DNA from: Octopus sinensis
Lineage: Eukaryota
NCBI RefSeq assembly: GCF_006345805.1
Contig: NC_043025.1
Coordinates: 2,170,001 to 2,234,000, forward strand
Direction: 5' to 3'
DNA length: 64,000 nucleotides
How positions within the stretch are numbered: position 1 is the stretch's first letter; each line of letters opens with the position of its first letter. The position numbers are program-made. This document shows, piece after piece, positions 1 to 64,000 of the stretch.

Positions 1-3000
1 GACAGTGCTTTAGTGTTCCCCACACTGTCATTTAACCGTTCGCTAAAAGTGACCAATAGATTAAGTAACAAGCCTACAAAAATGCGTGCAAGATTTGATA
101 CACTCGACTAATATCCTTCAAGATAATGTTCTGGCATAGCGGAGGAGTAATGAGTGAAATAAGTAAAGGAGAAGGATATTCATATATAACATGTATCAGT
201 GTAACACGTGTCAGTTAAATGACAGCATGATCTAACGTAGGACTTATTCAAATATTCAACCGAAAAAGCATATTTTACACCTTTGCTTGATTGTATTGCA
301 CCGTACGTTAATTATCTCATCTCATCAATACTTAGTGGGTCTTCTTAATCTTCTTTTCTTCTTCGTCTTTTTCATCTTCTTCTTTTTCTTTTTGTTCTTT
401 TTATCCTTCTTCTTCTTCTTCTTCTTCTTCTTCTTCTTCTTCTTCTTCTTCTATTCTTCTTCCTGTTCCTGTTTTGTCATGTGTCTTGTTATCGTCTGTT
501 TCATTTTAGACACCCATTATTCAATATGTGATCAAAAATCTTTTCATAACAACTGTTATCCGGTTCTTTATTTCTGCAGATATTTAAACGGAAATAATAT
601 TTCGAGCATTGAAGAAGGAAGTTTCCAGGGTCTTCCTAGATTACAGCTATTGTAAGTCCGTTCGTTTTTTGTTGATACTGCATTATGAATCTTATTGTTT
701 CATACCATTACTCTCCTCCCGTCTCTCTTTTTATTGCTCTAACTTATATTCTCTCCCTATATTGGTTCAATATCTGTTTCAGTTATTTTTCTGTTACAGC
801 ATGTAGATGGAATGTGGGAAAATGTAAATACTTAGAATATAGTCACATATTTCTTTGTCTTTCAAAATGATACCAGCGTCGTTCACTGGTAATCTGCGTC
901 AATTTCCAACATACTCTTCCGCTGATGATATATTTATAAATATTTAATGGGCTCTTATTTTCCTTCTCTCGCCTCCTCCCCTTGAAACTAATATTCTCTC
1001 TTATCGTATTTGCGCTTGAATGTCATTGAATGTGGGAAAATGAGCGTAAATATGGGTGTAACTGCACAATACTCTATGCATAAGTGGATGTGTGTATGAC
1101 TGTATATGCTTATATGCGCAAGACTTCGTCTCCCGACATTCTGAGATCAATCTCCGCCGAGATGGCTTTGCCTTTCGCCCTTCCAGGGTCGATAAAATAA
1201 ATACCAGCTGAAAACTTGGGTTGTTGTAATCGACACATTCCCTCTACCCAAATGGTTGCAGTTGTGGAACAATTTGAAACAGTTATCATATCTCTTTGCA
1301 AATAGTTTGTATATCAATATTTATTGTATTTCGTGTCTATTATAGATCTATTCATGGAAATAATATTTCGCATATAGAAAAAGGGATATTCCAAGATCTT
1401 CCGAGTTTAAAGGAATTGTAAGTCAATTTATTTTTCTTAATACAACTTTATGAAAATAATATTGCTATAAATTTATTGTCATTTCGTTTCTGTTTCATGC
1501 CCTATTCTTTGGACTTTTACTCATTTTTTCTCCATATATTTGAGTTATGTTGCTTTGTTTGTGTATGAGGAAGAGTACAACTGGGATTTTACATGTTTGC
1601 ATGAAAGCATATTAATAGAAATTTTGTATGTATATGTTCATATGTATATATATGAATTAGGCAAATCGAACAGGGAAAAACATAAACCAAAAAATAAAAA
1701 TAAAAATAATTAATATATTATACAAAATATATAAAATTTTAAAATTTAAATTATTTAAATTTAAAATTATTAATTTATATTTATAAATTTTTATAAATTT
1801 TTTTTTTTTACGTATATATATATATATATATTTTAAATATTCTATATAAATACTGATTGTTATGTAATGATTCAGTTATCAAAGTTAAGTATATAATTAC
1901 TAGATTTTAACTCTACGTTTATTTCTAAGACTTTATTTAGCCAAATAGATATATAGATCGTTAATAGTAATACGATTTTTTTTAAAGTTAGGTTTCATGT
2001 CTATACATTTATTGATAGCATAAATATTAGTCTTTAATCACTATATTTGTTGATAGTTATTTAGTTGTTATTTTTAAATATTTTATAATTATTAGATTTG
2101 TACTTAAATCTAATATATGAATAACGATTTTTAGTTAAATAATTTAGCAATTAACTTTTTGAACTATAACTGAGTTTAGGATATTTGTGAGTTTATTATG
2201 TTTTTTTAAGCTATTTTATATATTCATAAATATCTCTAATAGTTGACTTTGTTCTATTATAGTTTATATATAGCTATTTTCAATTGAAAATTTGTAGTAG
2301 TATTTTTCATTTATAAATATATTCGTAGTAATTATTGGATACTATATAACTACGGATTGATAATTTCATTGTATAAGTATTTAGTTGTTGAAGACATTAG
2401 TTCATTATTAGTTCATAACTATACGGGTTTTGTAAGTTATTAATTAGCCAACGAGTTATATGGATGGTTAAATACTTATAGGGTCTTTTAAGATTGTTTA
2501 TTTGTTTAAAATCTGCTTTTTCATCTTAATCTTTTCATTTTTAATATATTTCATAAGTAATAATGAATAATTAATTTATTTAGTTTTTATTATAGGTATA
2601 TATATTATTGATAGAGATAATTTTAGATCTTAATTCTTATATTTATATATATATTTATATATTTATATATATTTATTGATAATTTAGTTATTATTCAAAT
2701 ATTTTGTAATTATTTGATTTGAACTTAAATTTAATAATATGAATAGTCATTATTTTTTGATTATTTTTTTGTTACATAATTAGCTAATTAGATATTGACT
2801 ATAACTGAGATTAGGTTATTCGTGAGTTTATTATGTTTTTTTAAGCTATTTTATATATTCATAAATATCTCTAATAGTTGACTTTGTTCTATTATAGTTT
2901 ATATATAGCTATTTTCAATTGAAAATTTGTAGTAGTATTTTTCATTTATAAATATATTCGTAGTAATTATTGGATACTATATAACTACGGATTGATAATT

Positions 3001-63000: not shown

Positions 63001-64000
63001 TCTTCTTATTCTTCTTAGGCTTTTTCTTATTCTTCTTATTCTTCTTCGTGTGCTGCTTTTCTTCTTCTCTTCTTCTTATTATTATTCTTAGTGATTTTAT
63101 TCTTTTCTTCTTCGTGCTTTTATTCTTCTTCTTATTCTTATTATCTTCGTGATTTTCTTCTTCTTCTTCTTCTTCTTCGTTCTTTTCTTCTTCTTATTCT
63201 TCTTATTCTTCTTCTCGTGCTTTCTTCTCCTTCTTCTTATTCTTCTTCTATCTTATTCGTGACTTTCTTCTTCTTCTTATTCTTCTTCTTCTTCTTGCTT
63301 TTCTTCTTCTTCCTGTACTTTTTCTTCTAGTGCTTCTTTTCTTTTTCTTCGTGTTATCCTTCTTCCATAACAAATCTTATCATCATTCTTTACTGCTACA
63401 GATATTTATACAGGAATAATATTTCGAGCATTGAACAAGGAAGCTTTGAAGATCTTCCTAGACTAAAGATATTGTAAGTTCTTCAGTTTTATTAAGAAAA
63501 TATGATTTTTCATATATTTTCTGTAATTTAATTCCACTTTTCTCTCGCTCTTTTATCACACTAACTCATAATCTGCTCCCATATTGGTAATATATCTGTA
63601 TGATTACTTCTTCTTATTCGTCTTCTTCGTATTCTTTCTCTTCTTTGTTTCCGCGCTCTTCCTCTTCTCTATTGCTCTTCTTCTTCTCTTGTAGTTATTA
63701 TTGTTACTGATGTTGCTATTGCTCTTCATTATTATAATTATTATATTATTATTATTATTATTATTATTATTATTATTATTATTATTATTATTATTTATCA
63801 TGTTTGTCTTTTTTTTCCTCTTTTTCTTTTTCGTGCCGTCTTTTTCCTTGCTCGTGCTTTTCATCTTTCGTTTCTTCTGTTCCATCTTCCTCATCTTCTT
63901 TGGCCTTCTTGTTATGCTTCTTCATCATCATCTTCTTGGCCTCCTTTTATCAGAAATCTTTCATTTACACTTTCCTTTATACATTGTTTTATGTTACAGA

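What the first reader, a model, noticed from the sequence alone, without database searches (positions are those of the whole stretch)
580..64000. Higher-order five-exon periodicity: ABCDE-ABCDE-AB_DE-ABC(D)
Seen: exons sort into five classes. A is (Y/F)L(N/D)GNNI (580, 24976, 50364, 59577). B is SxxxNxIxHI (1346, 32103, 51505, 60537). C ends LPRLxIL (8853, 36874, 63402). D is NNTIxxIDxG (10369, 39924, 54350, acceptor at 64000). E is LExNKIEKxERG (22315, 42798, 57277). Flanking intron sequence follows the same classes: D acceptors match each other, about 21490-22310 matches about 42035-42790, and an old degenerate SINE follows every E exon (about 23370-23520, 43373-43560, 58750-58890). Inference: a single exon-intron unit first amplified to five, then the 120-aa block was duplicated at least four times. 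Units now span from about 9 kb to about 25 kb because of independent insertions.
Basis: partly seen in the sequence, partly recalled or inferred. Interest (0 to 1): 0.72.

Follow-up and report, generated by a model that had tools for sequence, protein, structure and literature searches.

The report
Five-exon repeat blocks in LRR gene
The window holds part of an animal (probably octopus-like) gene in which each 72-base exon encodes one leucine-rich repeat and a block of five such exons was copied in tandem at least four times, a clean but ordinary case of a gene growing by exon and block duplication.

Summary
Exactly 17 exons, all on the + strand, are found. Each is 72 nt, AG/GTAAG-bounded and open in one frame, and an 18th starts at base 64000. 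All introns are phase 2 and every junction codon reads Leu.

Trees group exons by class, and grouping by physical neighbour is rejected for all four units. Colinear intron homology links all six unit pairs, so the ABCDE blocks are true tandem duplicates and not convergent exons.

Refinements:
- The five classes arose in stages: {A,B,C} against {D,E}, with A closest to C.
- Unit 3 most likely lost exon C by deletion.
- Size differences come from a LINE, a LINE fragment, two minisatellites and mariner-like and short interspersed repeats.
- The "SINE" after each E exon is a real shared element, but its SINE class is unproven.

The exons are under purifying selection.

The gene itself could not be identified. 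Single exons give only generic "typical" LRR matches. The kind is known: one LRR per phase-2 exon, and LRR super-repeats. A period of five is a minor variant.

The parts
580..651 (+). Exon A1, one 24-residue LRR
   Evidence: 72 nt, AG/GTAAGT, open in frame +1. LRR_8 E 2.7e-5, 24.3 bits, below the 27-bit cut-off.
1346..1417 (+). Exon B1
   Evidence: LRR_8 E 3.4e-4. The acceptor is TAG, as in all four B exons.
8853..8924 (+). Exon C1
   Evidence: LRR_8 E 3.3e-4.
10369..10440 (+). Exon D1
   Evidence: LRR_8 E 2.3e-4.
22315..22386 (+). Exon E1
   Evidence: LRR_8 E 8.1e-4.
24976..25047 (+). Exon A2
32103..32174 (+). Exon B2
36874..36945 (+). Exon C2 (donor GTAAGC)
39924..39995 (+). Exon D2
42798..42869 (+). 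Exon E2
50364..50435 (+). Exon A3
51505..51576 (+). Exon B3
54350..54421 (+). Exon D3
57277..57348 (+). Exon E3
59577..59648 (+). Exon A4
60537..60608 (+). Exon B4
63402..63473 (+). Exon C4
63945..64000 (+). D-type acceptor region and first base of exon D4
   Evidence: 89-91% identical to the acceptor regions of D1, D2 and D3.
53834..54129 (+). Place where exon C is missing in unit 3
   Evidence: The intron before this point matches the B-C introns of units 1, 2 and 4: 51807-52000 to 6385-6590, 51753-51998 to 35384-35637, 53039-53833 to 35820-36599, and 53041-53247 to 61385-61592. D-upstream homology starts at 54130. No exon relic was found.
21485..22314 (+). E1 upstream intron, homologous to the E2 upstream intron (42028-42797)
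   Evidence: 71.9% over 964 columns, exon included.
23403..23580 (+). Old copy of a short interspersed repeat after E1, with counterparts at 43419-43556 and 58872-58949
   Evidence: SINE class not shown.
11486..14688 (-). Degenerate LINE in the D1-E1 intron (endonuclease, reverse transcriptase, zf-RVT, in separate frames)
   Evidence: Exo_endo_phos 1.3e-12, RVT_1 4.2e-18, zf-RVT 1.5e-8. Best named relative is from Argonauta hians, 66% identity.
25274..31361 (+). 20-nt minisatellite, 305 copies, filling most of the A2-B2 intron
   Evidence: Strong GC skew.
37041..39443 (+). 29-nt minisatellite, 83 copies, in the C2-D2 intron
43622..44917 (+). LINE fragment (RT C-terminus and zf-RVT) in the E2-A3 intron
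52011..52876 (+). Internally deleted mariner-like element in the B3-D3 intron, with copies at 20612-21493 (+) and 61011-61214 (-)
   Evidence: HTH_48 (Mos1 transposase HTH) E 7.6e-20 in 52138-52335. Copies.
19322..20155 (+). Exon-less copy of a whole A-to-B type intron inside the D1-E1 intron
   Evidence: Matches 25159-25296, 31309-32024, 50822-51404, 803-1123 and 59766-60131. No exon relic.

Best explanation
The window is an internal stretch of one large gene on the + strand, from an AT-rich invertebrate that is probably an octopod cephalopod. Each 72-nt exon encodes one 24-residue 'typical' leucine-rich repeat.

Shown: every intron sits at the same place in the repeat. It falls after the second base of the Leu codon at the fourth position of LxxLxLxxNxI, so it is phase 2. 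Any exon, or any run of exons, can therefore be added or lost without breaking the frame.

Inferred history: an ancestral exon-plus-intron unit gave two lineages. One became A, B and C (A and C last) and the other became D and E. The resulting five-exon ABCDE block (360 coding nt, 120 aa) was then copied in tandem to at least four copies. The most likely mechanism is unequal crossing-over between the homologous introns, which are rich in (TCT)n. The same process explains the loss of exon C from unit 3.

Later changes stretched the units to 24.4, 25.4 and 9.2 kb: a LINE, a LINE fragment, mariner-like and short interspersed repeats, and two minisatellites of 6.1 and 2.4 kb.

Shown: the exons have been kept intact by selection.

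Inferred: the product is a long LRR solenoid of at least 18 consecutive repeats. The residues that tell the five classes apart lie mainly at the variable x positions of LxxLxLxxN, which face the concave binding surface. That surface would therefore carry a pattern repeating every fifth turn. An N-x-S/T sequon in 13 of 17 exons hints at a secreted or cell-surface protein. Which LRR protein this is remains unknown.
For: Exon anatomy.

Classes:
- 17 of 17 nearest neighbours are same-class, and 0 of 20000 label shuffles reach the observed value.
- The class trees need the minimum of 4 changes (0 of 200 shuffles as low), and {A,B,C} splits from {D,E} at 100/100 support.
- Physical units as clades are rejected in 4 of 4 tests. 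Class E as one clade is not rejected (p 0.489).

Block homology: colinear chains exist in 6 of 6 unit pairs, with 264 to 2472 nt of exon-free aligned intron. The reversed control gave 0-2 HSPs.

Staged origin.

Selection: there are 0 gap openings in 1512 pairwise exon columns, against 179 in 9330 intron columns (29 expected at the intron rate). The chance that all 17 stay open with intact AG/GT under random substitution is 3.7e-7. Pooled within-class dN/dS is 0.40.

LRR identity:
- LRR_8 is the best Pfam family for 5 of 5 exons tested alone, and for 9 read-through frames that hold an exon.
- An exon profile hits 60 or more PDB LRR chains, including a designed LRR, decorin, VLRs, LGR4 and TLRs.
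- N5, I7, F15, L18 and L21 are invariant.

Class-diagnostic positions 1, 3, 4, 6, 9 and 23, and the sequons.

Insertions.

Taxon: a LINE reverse transcriptase is 66% identical to an Argonauta hians protein and 76% identical to an unnamed NCBI protein.
Against: - No transcript evidence exists. The exons are inferred from sequence alone.
- Single exons score 19.5-24.3 bits for LRR_8, below Pfam's 27-bit cut-off.
- Classes A, C and E have only moderate tree support. A and C are not separate in the exon-only tree, and E is paraphyletic with flanks.
- Between-unit distances are star-like and inconsistent between classes: K2P 0.28 to 0.76. The number and order of duplications cannot be read, and some gene conversion cannot be excluded.
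- Much of the upstream homology among A, B and C runs through (TCT)n tracts, which inflates alignment lengths.
- The pooled dN/dS and gap counts use non-independent pairs.
- No relative of the gene was found: searches gave none at E<=1, and the best match in any of the 150 listed representatives was 14 of 23 residues. The surface-receptor reading rests on motif content only.
- The claim about concave-face positions rests on recalled LRR structural knowledge. No model of this protein was made.
Confidence: 0.85

Rival explanations
1. The five classes are kept alike by ongoing gene conversion between distant same-class exons, or by selection for a structural five-fold pattern, and not by descent from block duplications.
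For: Between-unit distances are star-like and disagree between classes. Exon identity within a class (0.80) is a little above that of the near flanks (0.75).
Against: Homology extends hundreds of nt into the introns and is colinear over whole units in 6 of 6 unit pairs. There is no sharp identity step at the exon borders. Shared old repeat copies follow the E exons.
Confidence: 0.07
2. The array is a decaying pseudogene or untranscribed duplicate. The exons are fossils.
For: There is no expression data. No annotated protein containing these exons was found. One exon (C3) was lost, and an exon-less intron copy exists.
Against: 17 of 17 exons keep exact length, open frame, AG and GTAAG. There are 0 exon gap openings against 29 expected, and the joint chance under random substitution is 3.7e-7. 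dN/dS is 0.40. The junction codon is Leu at every boundary, including B3 to D3.
Confidence: 0.08
3. The periodicity is an assembly artefact, with collapsed or mis-joined copies of one five-exon unit.
For: Tandem duplicates and long satellites are hard to assemble.
Against: The copies differ by 11-25% in exons and more in introns. Each unit has its own private insertions. Mis-assembly of reads from one unit would give near-identical copies.
Confidence: 0.02
4. Growth was not by whole ABCDE blocks only. Partial blocks (for example A-B, or D-E) were also copied and lost, so the present order is a mosaic.
For: An exon-less copy of a whole A-to-B type intron lies in the D1-E1 intron, followed by a mariner-like element at about the same spacing as in unit 3. 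Exon C is missing in unit 3. Class trees disagree on which units are closest.
Against: The mariner-like element is a mobile element with three copies, one of them inverted, so its position may be chance. No exon relic marks the supposed partial unit.
Confidence: 0.4

Closest known systems
Brown-algal ROCO (LRR-ROC-COR) genes with shuffled LRR exons
   Same: One LRR per exon, exons of exactly 72 nt, phase-2 introns, and tandem arrays that vary by exon gain and loss. Related non-coding LRR copies are reported in their introns. Source: PMC3341825 and PMC11378527, passages read.
   Different: Those are cytoplasmic GTPase genes of GC-rich algae, with a different LRR consensus and short introns. No five-exon higher-order period is described in the passages I read. 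No ROC-COR domain can be looked for here because the gene runs off the window.
Gonadotrophin receptor / LGR gene family
   Same: The LRR region is built from exons that each correspond to one LRR, and all introns are phase 2. This is stated in PMC11378527, citing Koo 1991 and Kobe & Deisenhofer 1994 (passage). LGR4 is among the PDB matches of the exon profile. One database relative of the exon, P0135, is an LRR protein with a 7tm_1 domain and a long LRR array.
   Different: No 7TM exon is in the window. P0135 has a two-LRR period and is no closer than other hits. The known receptors have 9-18 LRRs, whereas this window alone holds 18 with no end in sight.
[quoted passage not shown]
   Same: Tandem arrays of equal-length LRR exons, an extreme phase-2 bias, a junction codon shared between neighbouring exons, and growth by exon duplication. 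Source: PMC6564038, abstract and passages.
   Different: The exons are 90 nt, the organism is a ciliate, the introns are short, and thousands of genes are involved. No five-exon block is described.
Ribonuclease inhibitor and NLR (NLRP3) LRR exons
   Same: Strict exon modularity, with the border always at the same place in the beta-strand, and a higher-order unit of more than one LRR. Source: PMC6642158, passages.
   Different: There each exon is 171 nt and holds the two-LRR unit (28 and 29 residues, RI-type). Here the higher-order unit is five separate exons of one length and of the 'typical' class.
LRR super-motifs (STT) of small proteoglycans and TLR7/8/9
   Same: LRR subtypes recur with a fixed period along the solenoid, which is taken as a trace of block duplication. 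Source: PMC1899181, passages.
   Different: The period is three, the subtypes differ in length and class (S against T), and the repeats are not split one per exon. Here the period is five, all repeats are 24 residues, and the intron homology that proves block duplication is still readable.

Membership tests
Leucine-rich repeat superfamily, 'typical' 24-residue class | Conserved segment LxxLxLxxNx(L/I) followed by xx(L/I)xxGxFxxL, with a repeat length of 24 | tested here: met
   N5, I7, F15, L18 and L21 are invariant, I10 is nearly invariant, and Leu sits at every junction codon. All 17 repeats are 24 codons long.
Leucine-rich repeat superfamily, 'typical' 24-residue class | Match to Pfam LRR models at the curated cut-off | tested here: inconclusive
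   LRR_8 is the top family for 5 of 5 single exons, at E 2.7e-5 to 8.1e-4. The scores of 19.5-24.3 bits are below the 27-bit cut-off, which is set for two or more repeats. Exons were not joined.
Leucine-rich repeat superfamily, 'typical' 24-residue class | Solenoid fold of stacked repeats | not tested
   This needs a joined model, and that step was left out.
One-LRR-per-exon, phase-2 gene build (ROCO of brown algae; gonadotrophin receptor/LGR) | Each LRR on its own exon of constant length, with all introns phase 2 at one position in the repeat | tested here: met
   17 of 17 exons are 72 nt and split as 1 + 69 + 2.
LGR / glycoprotein hormone receptor family | Rhodopsin-type 7TM domain after the LRR ectodomain, and cysteine caps | not testable with these tools
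   The gene runs off both ends of the window. Of the 250 + strand frames of 45 aa or more that were scanned, none matched 7tm, LRRNT or LRRCT at E<=1e-3.
Slit family | Four short LRR domains (4-7 repeats), each closed by LRRNT and LRRCT caps | tested here: not met
   18 LRR exons follow one another, and no cap-like frame lies between them among the 250 frames scanned. Short cap exons in frames under 45 aa would be missed. That Slit has 72-nt LRR exons is recalled, not checked.
LRR super-motif proteins (SLRP, TLR7 family; RI/NLR) | Regular alternation of LRR subtypes along the array | tested here: met
   The order is ABCDE ABCDE AB-DE ABCD.
LRR super-motif proteins (SLRP, TLR7 family; RI/NLR) | Subtypes that differ in length or LRR class (S/T; 28/29 residues) | tested here: not met
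   All five classes are 24 residues long and of one LRR class.
tRNA-derived SINE (for the element after each E exon) | tRNA-related 5' head with internal pol III promoter | tested here: inconclusive
   ARAGORN finds 0 genes. Rfam finds nothing at gathering score and no tRNA match at E<=1 in 22840-23600. By eye, the younger copies start with box-A- and box-B-like words (the motifs are recalled).

The most novel reading that the evidence does not exclude
The array is a combinatorial diversity device and not a fixed solenoid. Because all exons are symmetric (phase 2 on both sides, Leu at every junction), any subset could be spliced out in frame, as reported for brown-algal ROCO genes.

The B-C introns of units 2, 3 and 4 carry, at homologous places, an antisense LRR-exon-like stretch. 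In two of three units this stretch is among the best pairing partners in the intron for a neighbouring exon: -29.4 kcal/mol with C4 (rank 3 of 274 windows) and -30.1 with B3 (rank 2 of 272).

In a cephalopod, such exon-intron duplexes could steer exon choice or serve as editing-site complementary sequences for A-to-I recoding of the binding surface.
Probability: 0.06. Interest if true: 0.65.

Novelty: new member of a known kind. Interest (0 to 1): 0.3.

Why it matters
The locus is an unusually legible record of how a repeat protein grows. Exon, intron, block and later insertions can all still be aligned, so the steps can be read from one locus: single-exon duplication, five-exon block duplication, exon loss and transposon stretching. 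It extends the one-LRR-per-phase-2-exon build, known from vertebrate hormone receptors, brown algae and ciliates, to what is probably a cephalopod gene. It also adds a period-five super-repeat to the known periods of two and three. It opens no new mechanism. Its practical value is for annotation: such genes, with 72-nt exons kilobases apart, are easily missed or fragmented by gene finders. That may be why no protein with these exons was found.

Tried and rejected
Gene identity
- A single exon (23 aa) was too short for the search for homologous proteins.
- I then sent unchanged read-through frames of one exon plus its upstream intron. D1 (46 aa) had 2 candidates and C4 (48 aa) had 7. None scored E<=1, and only proteins of 82/85-2000 aa were searched.
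- The search of protein representatives with the 30-aa frame around D3 gave 227 proteins at E<=1e-3, all generic LRR proteins. The best ungapped match of any of the 17 exons in the 150 listed was 14 of 23 residues.
- Pfam on 12 of the top 18 hits showed LRRs with bacterial Ig, cadherin-like, fn3 or PKD domains, and one protein with 7tm_1.
- The ESM Atlas on the exon A1 part gave generic LRR clusters.
- The PDB profile search gave generic LRR chains.

Order of the block duplications
- K2P distances of exon plus 200-nt flanks give no consistent order.

'Ghost unit' in the D1-E1 intron
- I first read 19.3-21.5 kb as a copy of unit 3's A-B-C intron run.
- One search then showed that the 20.6-21.5 kb part is a mariner-like transposon, so only 19322-20155 remains as evidence.

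Exon relics
- None was found at the C3 gap or in the ghost region.
- The weak antisense matches (E 0.11, 1.3, 22) are not significant one by one. One similar hit (21254-21230, E 0.75) lies inside the mariner-like element, so it is probably chance.

SINE head
- ARAGORN and Rfam found none.

GIY-YIG (Penelope-like) hint
- It appeared in 33997-35136 at E 0.0024. It is below the cut-off and did not pass the E<=1e-3 threshold used.

Literature
- Searches found no description of a five-LRR exon block or of a cephalopod LRR gene of this build in the held library.
- PMC4154783, PMC4536197, PMC11863921 and PMC6408891 (passages only) added nothing on exon size or phase.
- No supplements were opened.

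Not done
- The exons were never joined, so there was no search, Pfam scan or fold of a spliced model.
- No eukaryotic genome collection was available for orthologous loci.
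Full report
WHAT IS THERE

The window is 64,000 bases with no N. It is 35% G+C and has a marked excess of T over A on the + strand (24,950 T against 16,563 A).

- Each is preceded by a pyrimidine tract and AG. The acceptor is CAG in classes A, C, D and E, and TAG in all four B exons.
- Each is followed by GTAAGT (16 of 17) or GTAAGC (C2).
- Each is open in one frame only.

A DNA profile built from the 17 exons finds the same 17, all on the + strand, at E 4e-19 to 1.9e-11. 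It finds nothing else below E 0.1, even with all filters off. The last 55-56 bases of the window are 89-91% identical to the acceptor regions of D1, D2 and D3. Base 64000 is therefore the first base of an 18th exon, D4.

Each exon is 1 nt + 23 codons + 2 nt, so all introns are phase 2. The split codon is TTA, CTA or TTG at every junction, which always reads Leu. This includes the B3-to-D3 junction that skips a C exon.

THE FIVE CLASSES ARE REAL

Identity figures:

| Comparison | Mean exon identity | Pairs |
|---|---|---|
| Within class | 0.80 | 21 |
| Between classes | 0.62 | 115 |
| Physically adjacent exons | 0.64 | not printed |

- 17 of 17 exons have their nearest neighbour in their own class.
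- 0 of 20,000 label shuffles reach the observed within-class mean.

Maximum-likelihood trees of the exons alone, and of exons with 100-nt flanks, both need only 4 changes of class label. That is the minimum possible, and 0 of 200 shuffles were as low.
- With flanks, A, B, C and D are each one side of a branch (support 65/86, 95/92, 84/85 and 97/97).
- E is split, but E as one clade is not rejected (p-AU 0.489).

That grouping fails clearly: holding the exons of unit 1, 2, 3 or 4 together costs 243, 231, 161 and 63 log-likelihood units (p-AU 4.6e-53, 0.0117, 1e-7, 3e-7).

THE BLOCKS ARE DUPLICATES, INTRONS INCLUDED

All six pairs of units share a colinear chain of 4 to 13 alignments. Of these, 264 to 2,472 aligned nt lie in segments without an exon. 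A control with the second unit reversed gave 0-2 alignments.

Copies differ by 11-25% in exons and by K2P 0.28-0.76 in exon-plus-flank alignments. Each unit also carries private insertions, so an assembly artefact is not credible.

STAGED ORIGIN OF THE FIVE

The deepest split in both trees is {A,B,C} against {D,E}, at 100/100 support. Alignments through an exon extend as follows:
- up to 756 nt upstream among A, B and C
- up to 191 nt between D and E
- only 4-27 nt beyond the exon across the two groups

A and C exons are 78% identical on average, against 84% within A or within C. D and E are 69% identical, against 78-79% within class (my arithmetic on the matrix).

So the five did not arise in one burst. 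The likely order is: an old split into two exon types; then B and the A/C pair on one side and D/E on the other; then the block copies. The order of the block copies cannot be read, because distances are star-like and differ between classes.

LOSS OF EXON C IN UNIT 3

The B3-D3 intron starts like a B-C intron:
- 51807-52000 matches 6385-6590
- 51753-51998 matches 35384-35637
- 53039-53833 matches 35820-36599
- 53041-53247 matches 61385-61592

It ends like a C-D intron, with D-upstream homology from 54130. No exon relic lies between.

I read this as deletion of the C exon, inferred rather than shown. Part of the evidence runs through (CTT)n, which also occurs upstream of D1.

SELECTION

In pairwise class alignments there are 179 gap openings in 9,330 intron columns and none in 1,512 exon columns, where 29 would be expected. 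Given each exon's distance from its class consensus, the chance that all 17 keep AG, GT and an open frame under random substitution is 3.7e-7. Pooled within-class dN/dS is 0.40. These counts use non-independent pairs, but the direction is clear: the exons are, or recently were, functional.

WHAT THE EXONS ENCODE

- Each of 5 exons tested alone has LRR_8 as its best Pfam family, at E 2.7e-5 to 8.1e-4. The scores are below the 27-bit cut-off, which is set for longer matches.
- Nine read-through frames holding an exon give the same result.
- N5, I7, F15, L18 and L21 are invariant. With the junction Leu, the repeat reads LxxLxLxxNxIxxIxxGxFxx, the 24-residue 'typical' class.
- A profile of the 17 peptides matches 60 or more PDB LRR chains, with no clear favourite: a designed LRR, decorin, lamprey VLRs, LGR4, TLR4/5, Nogo receptor, LRIG1, RXFP1, FSHR and Slit2.

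The positions that best tell the classes apart are 1, 3, 4, 6, 9 and 23. Five of these six are x positions of LxxLxLxxN, which in solved LRR structures face the concave sheet and the adjoining loop. That structural point is recalled from the LRR literature and was not tested here.

13 of 17 exons carry an N-x-S/T sequon, a weak hint of a secreted or surface protein.

WHAT THE GENE IS: NOT SETTLED

- Single exons are too short for the large protein search.
- Unchanged read-through frames around D1 and C4 found nothing at E<=1 among proteins of 82/85-2000 aa.
- A full scan of 1.84 billion representatives with the frame around D3 found 227 LRR proteins at E<=1e-3 but no orthologue. The best match to any exon in any of the 150 listed was 14 of 23 residues.
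- One hit, P0135, is an LRR protein with a rhodopsin-type 7TM domain and a two-LRR period. That is a lead towards LGR-type receptors, no more.
- Of 250 + strand frames of 45 aa or more, none matched a cap, Ig, EGF, TIR or 7TM family. Frames in the two minisatellites and low-complexity frames were left out. So within the window the LRR run appears uninterrupted, although short exons would be missed.

ORGANISM

The window does not look human and I do not take it for human. A degenerate LINE in the D1-E1 intron has a reverse transcriptase 66% identical to a protein named from Argonauta hians and 76% identical to an unnamed NCBI protein. The next named hit, from Patella, is 35% identical. An octopod cephalopod is the likely source. 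This is an inference from one transposon.

WHY THE UNITS DIFFER IN SIZE

The units span 24,396, 25,388 and 9,213 nt, measured from one A exon start to the next. The differences are explained by:
- the LINE at 11486-14688 on the minus strand
- a 20-nt minisatellite of 305 copies (25274-31361) and a 29-nt one of 83 copies (37041-39443)
- a LINE fragment at 43622-44917
- mariner-like elements
- copies of a roughly 450-nt interspersed repeat

THE ELEMENT AFTER EACH E EXON

A homologous stretch of about 140-180 nt follows E1, E2 and E3. It aligns to the body of that 450-nt repeat. E1 and E3 also share sequence beyond it (23503-23580 with 58872-58949), which suggests that the copy was there before the blocks were duplicated.

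Its SINE nature is not shown. There is no tRNA-like match by ARAGORN or Rfam. By eye, the younger copies begin with words that resemble pol III boxes (recalled motifs).

COMPARISON WITH WHAT IS KNOWN

One LRR per exon with phase-2 introns is described for:
- brown-algal ROCO genes, with 72-nt exons (PMC3341825 and PMC11378527, passages)
- gonadotrophin receptors (stated in PMC11378527, passage)
- Tetrahymena, with 90-nt exons (PMC6564038, abstract and passages)

Higher-order LRR periods are known as:
- two, within one 171-nt exon, in RI and NLRs (PMC6642158, passages)
- three, in small proteoglycans and TLR7-9 (PMC1899181, passages)

My six literature searches turned up no period-five block of single-LRR exons and no cephalopod gene of this build. 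The library is partial, and I opened no supplements.

VERDICT

This is a new, well-preserved member of a known kind. Interest is 0.3.

Noticed in passing
window 19322-20155: An exon-less copy of a complete A-to-B type intron sits inside the D1-E1 intron. It runs from about 110 nt after where an A exon would end to about 100 nt before where a B exon would start. Simple repeats follow, then a mariner-like element at about the same spacing as after B3. It may be the remnant of a partial extra unit whose exons were deleted.
   Followed up: partly
window 52011-52876 (+), 20612-21493 (+), 61011-61214 (-): There are three copies of an internally deleted mariner-like element (Mos1-type HTH, E 7.6e-20). 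In units 3 and 4 the element lies at the same homologous site of the B-C intron, just after the match to 6573-6590 of unit 1, but in opposite orientation. Units 1 and 2 lack it at that site.
   Followed up: partly
window 35977-35998, 53195-53221, 61541-61567 (minus strand): At homologous places in the B-C type introns of units 2, 3 and 4 there is a stretch that reads in antisense like the middle of an LRR exon. In unit 4 the reverse complement translates to an LRR-like run ending in a stop. Profile E-values are 22, 1.3 and 0.11, so it is marginal. Predicted pairing with a neighbouring exon is strong in units 3 and 4 (-30.1 and -29.4 kcal/mol) but not in unit 2.
   Followed up: partly
window 25274-31361: A 20-nt minisatellite of about 305 copies (95% matches) fills 6.1 kb of the A2-B2 intron. 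It gives a GC skew of +0.39 to +0.59 over 24-32 kb.
   Followed up: no
window 37041-39443: A 29-nt minisatellite of 83 copies (92% matches) lies in the C2-D2 intron.
   Followed up: no
window 56472-57166: A 139-nt unit is repeated five times at 99% identity, ending about 110 nt before exon E3. This is a very recent expansion next to an acceptor.
   Followed up: no
window 3851-5834: Two copies of the roughly 450-nt interspersed repeat face each other in inverted orientation (3851-4312 + and 5415-5834 -). They surround a near-palindrome (4728-5449, 88.5% self-complementary). This could be a foldback-like structure in the B1-C1 intron.
   Followed up: no
window 2042-3506: A tandem duplication with a period of about 630 nt (2042-2867 against 2668-3506, 93.5%) lies in the B1-C1 intron.
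   Followed up: no
window 340-462, 24615-24879, 36086-36698, 41413-41907, 49972-50191, 53321-53834, 58990-59267, 62956-63365: Long (TCT)n/(CTT)n tracts lie upstream of most A and C exons and some others. They are part of the duplicated unit. They are a likely substrate for unequal crossing-over, and they inflate intron alignment lengths.
   Followed up: partly
window 33997-35136 (+): A 379-aa open frame has a weak GIY-YIG match (E 0.0024, 18.6 bits, below the cut-off). It may be a Penelope-like element remnant. The match did not pass E<=1e-3 in the second scan.
   Followed up: partly
whole window: There is a strong T over A excess on the coding strand (39% T, 26% A; AT skew negative in 15 of 16 4-kb bins). 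This fits intron strand asymmetry of a long transcribed gene.
   Followed up: no
protein P0135 (database hit, unnamed source): This is an 1839-aa protein with about 35 LRRs in a clear two-LRR (48-residue) period ahead of a rhodopsin-type 7TM domain. It is another long LRR array with a higher-order period, and it is not an orthologue of this gene.
   Followed up: partly
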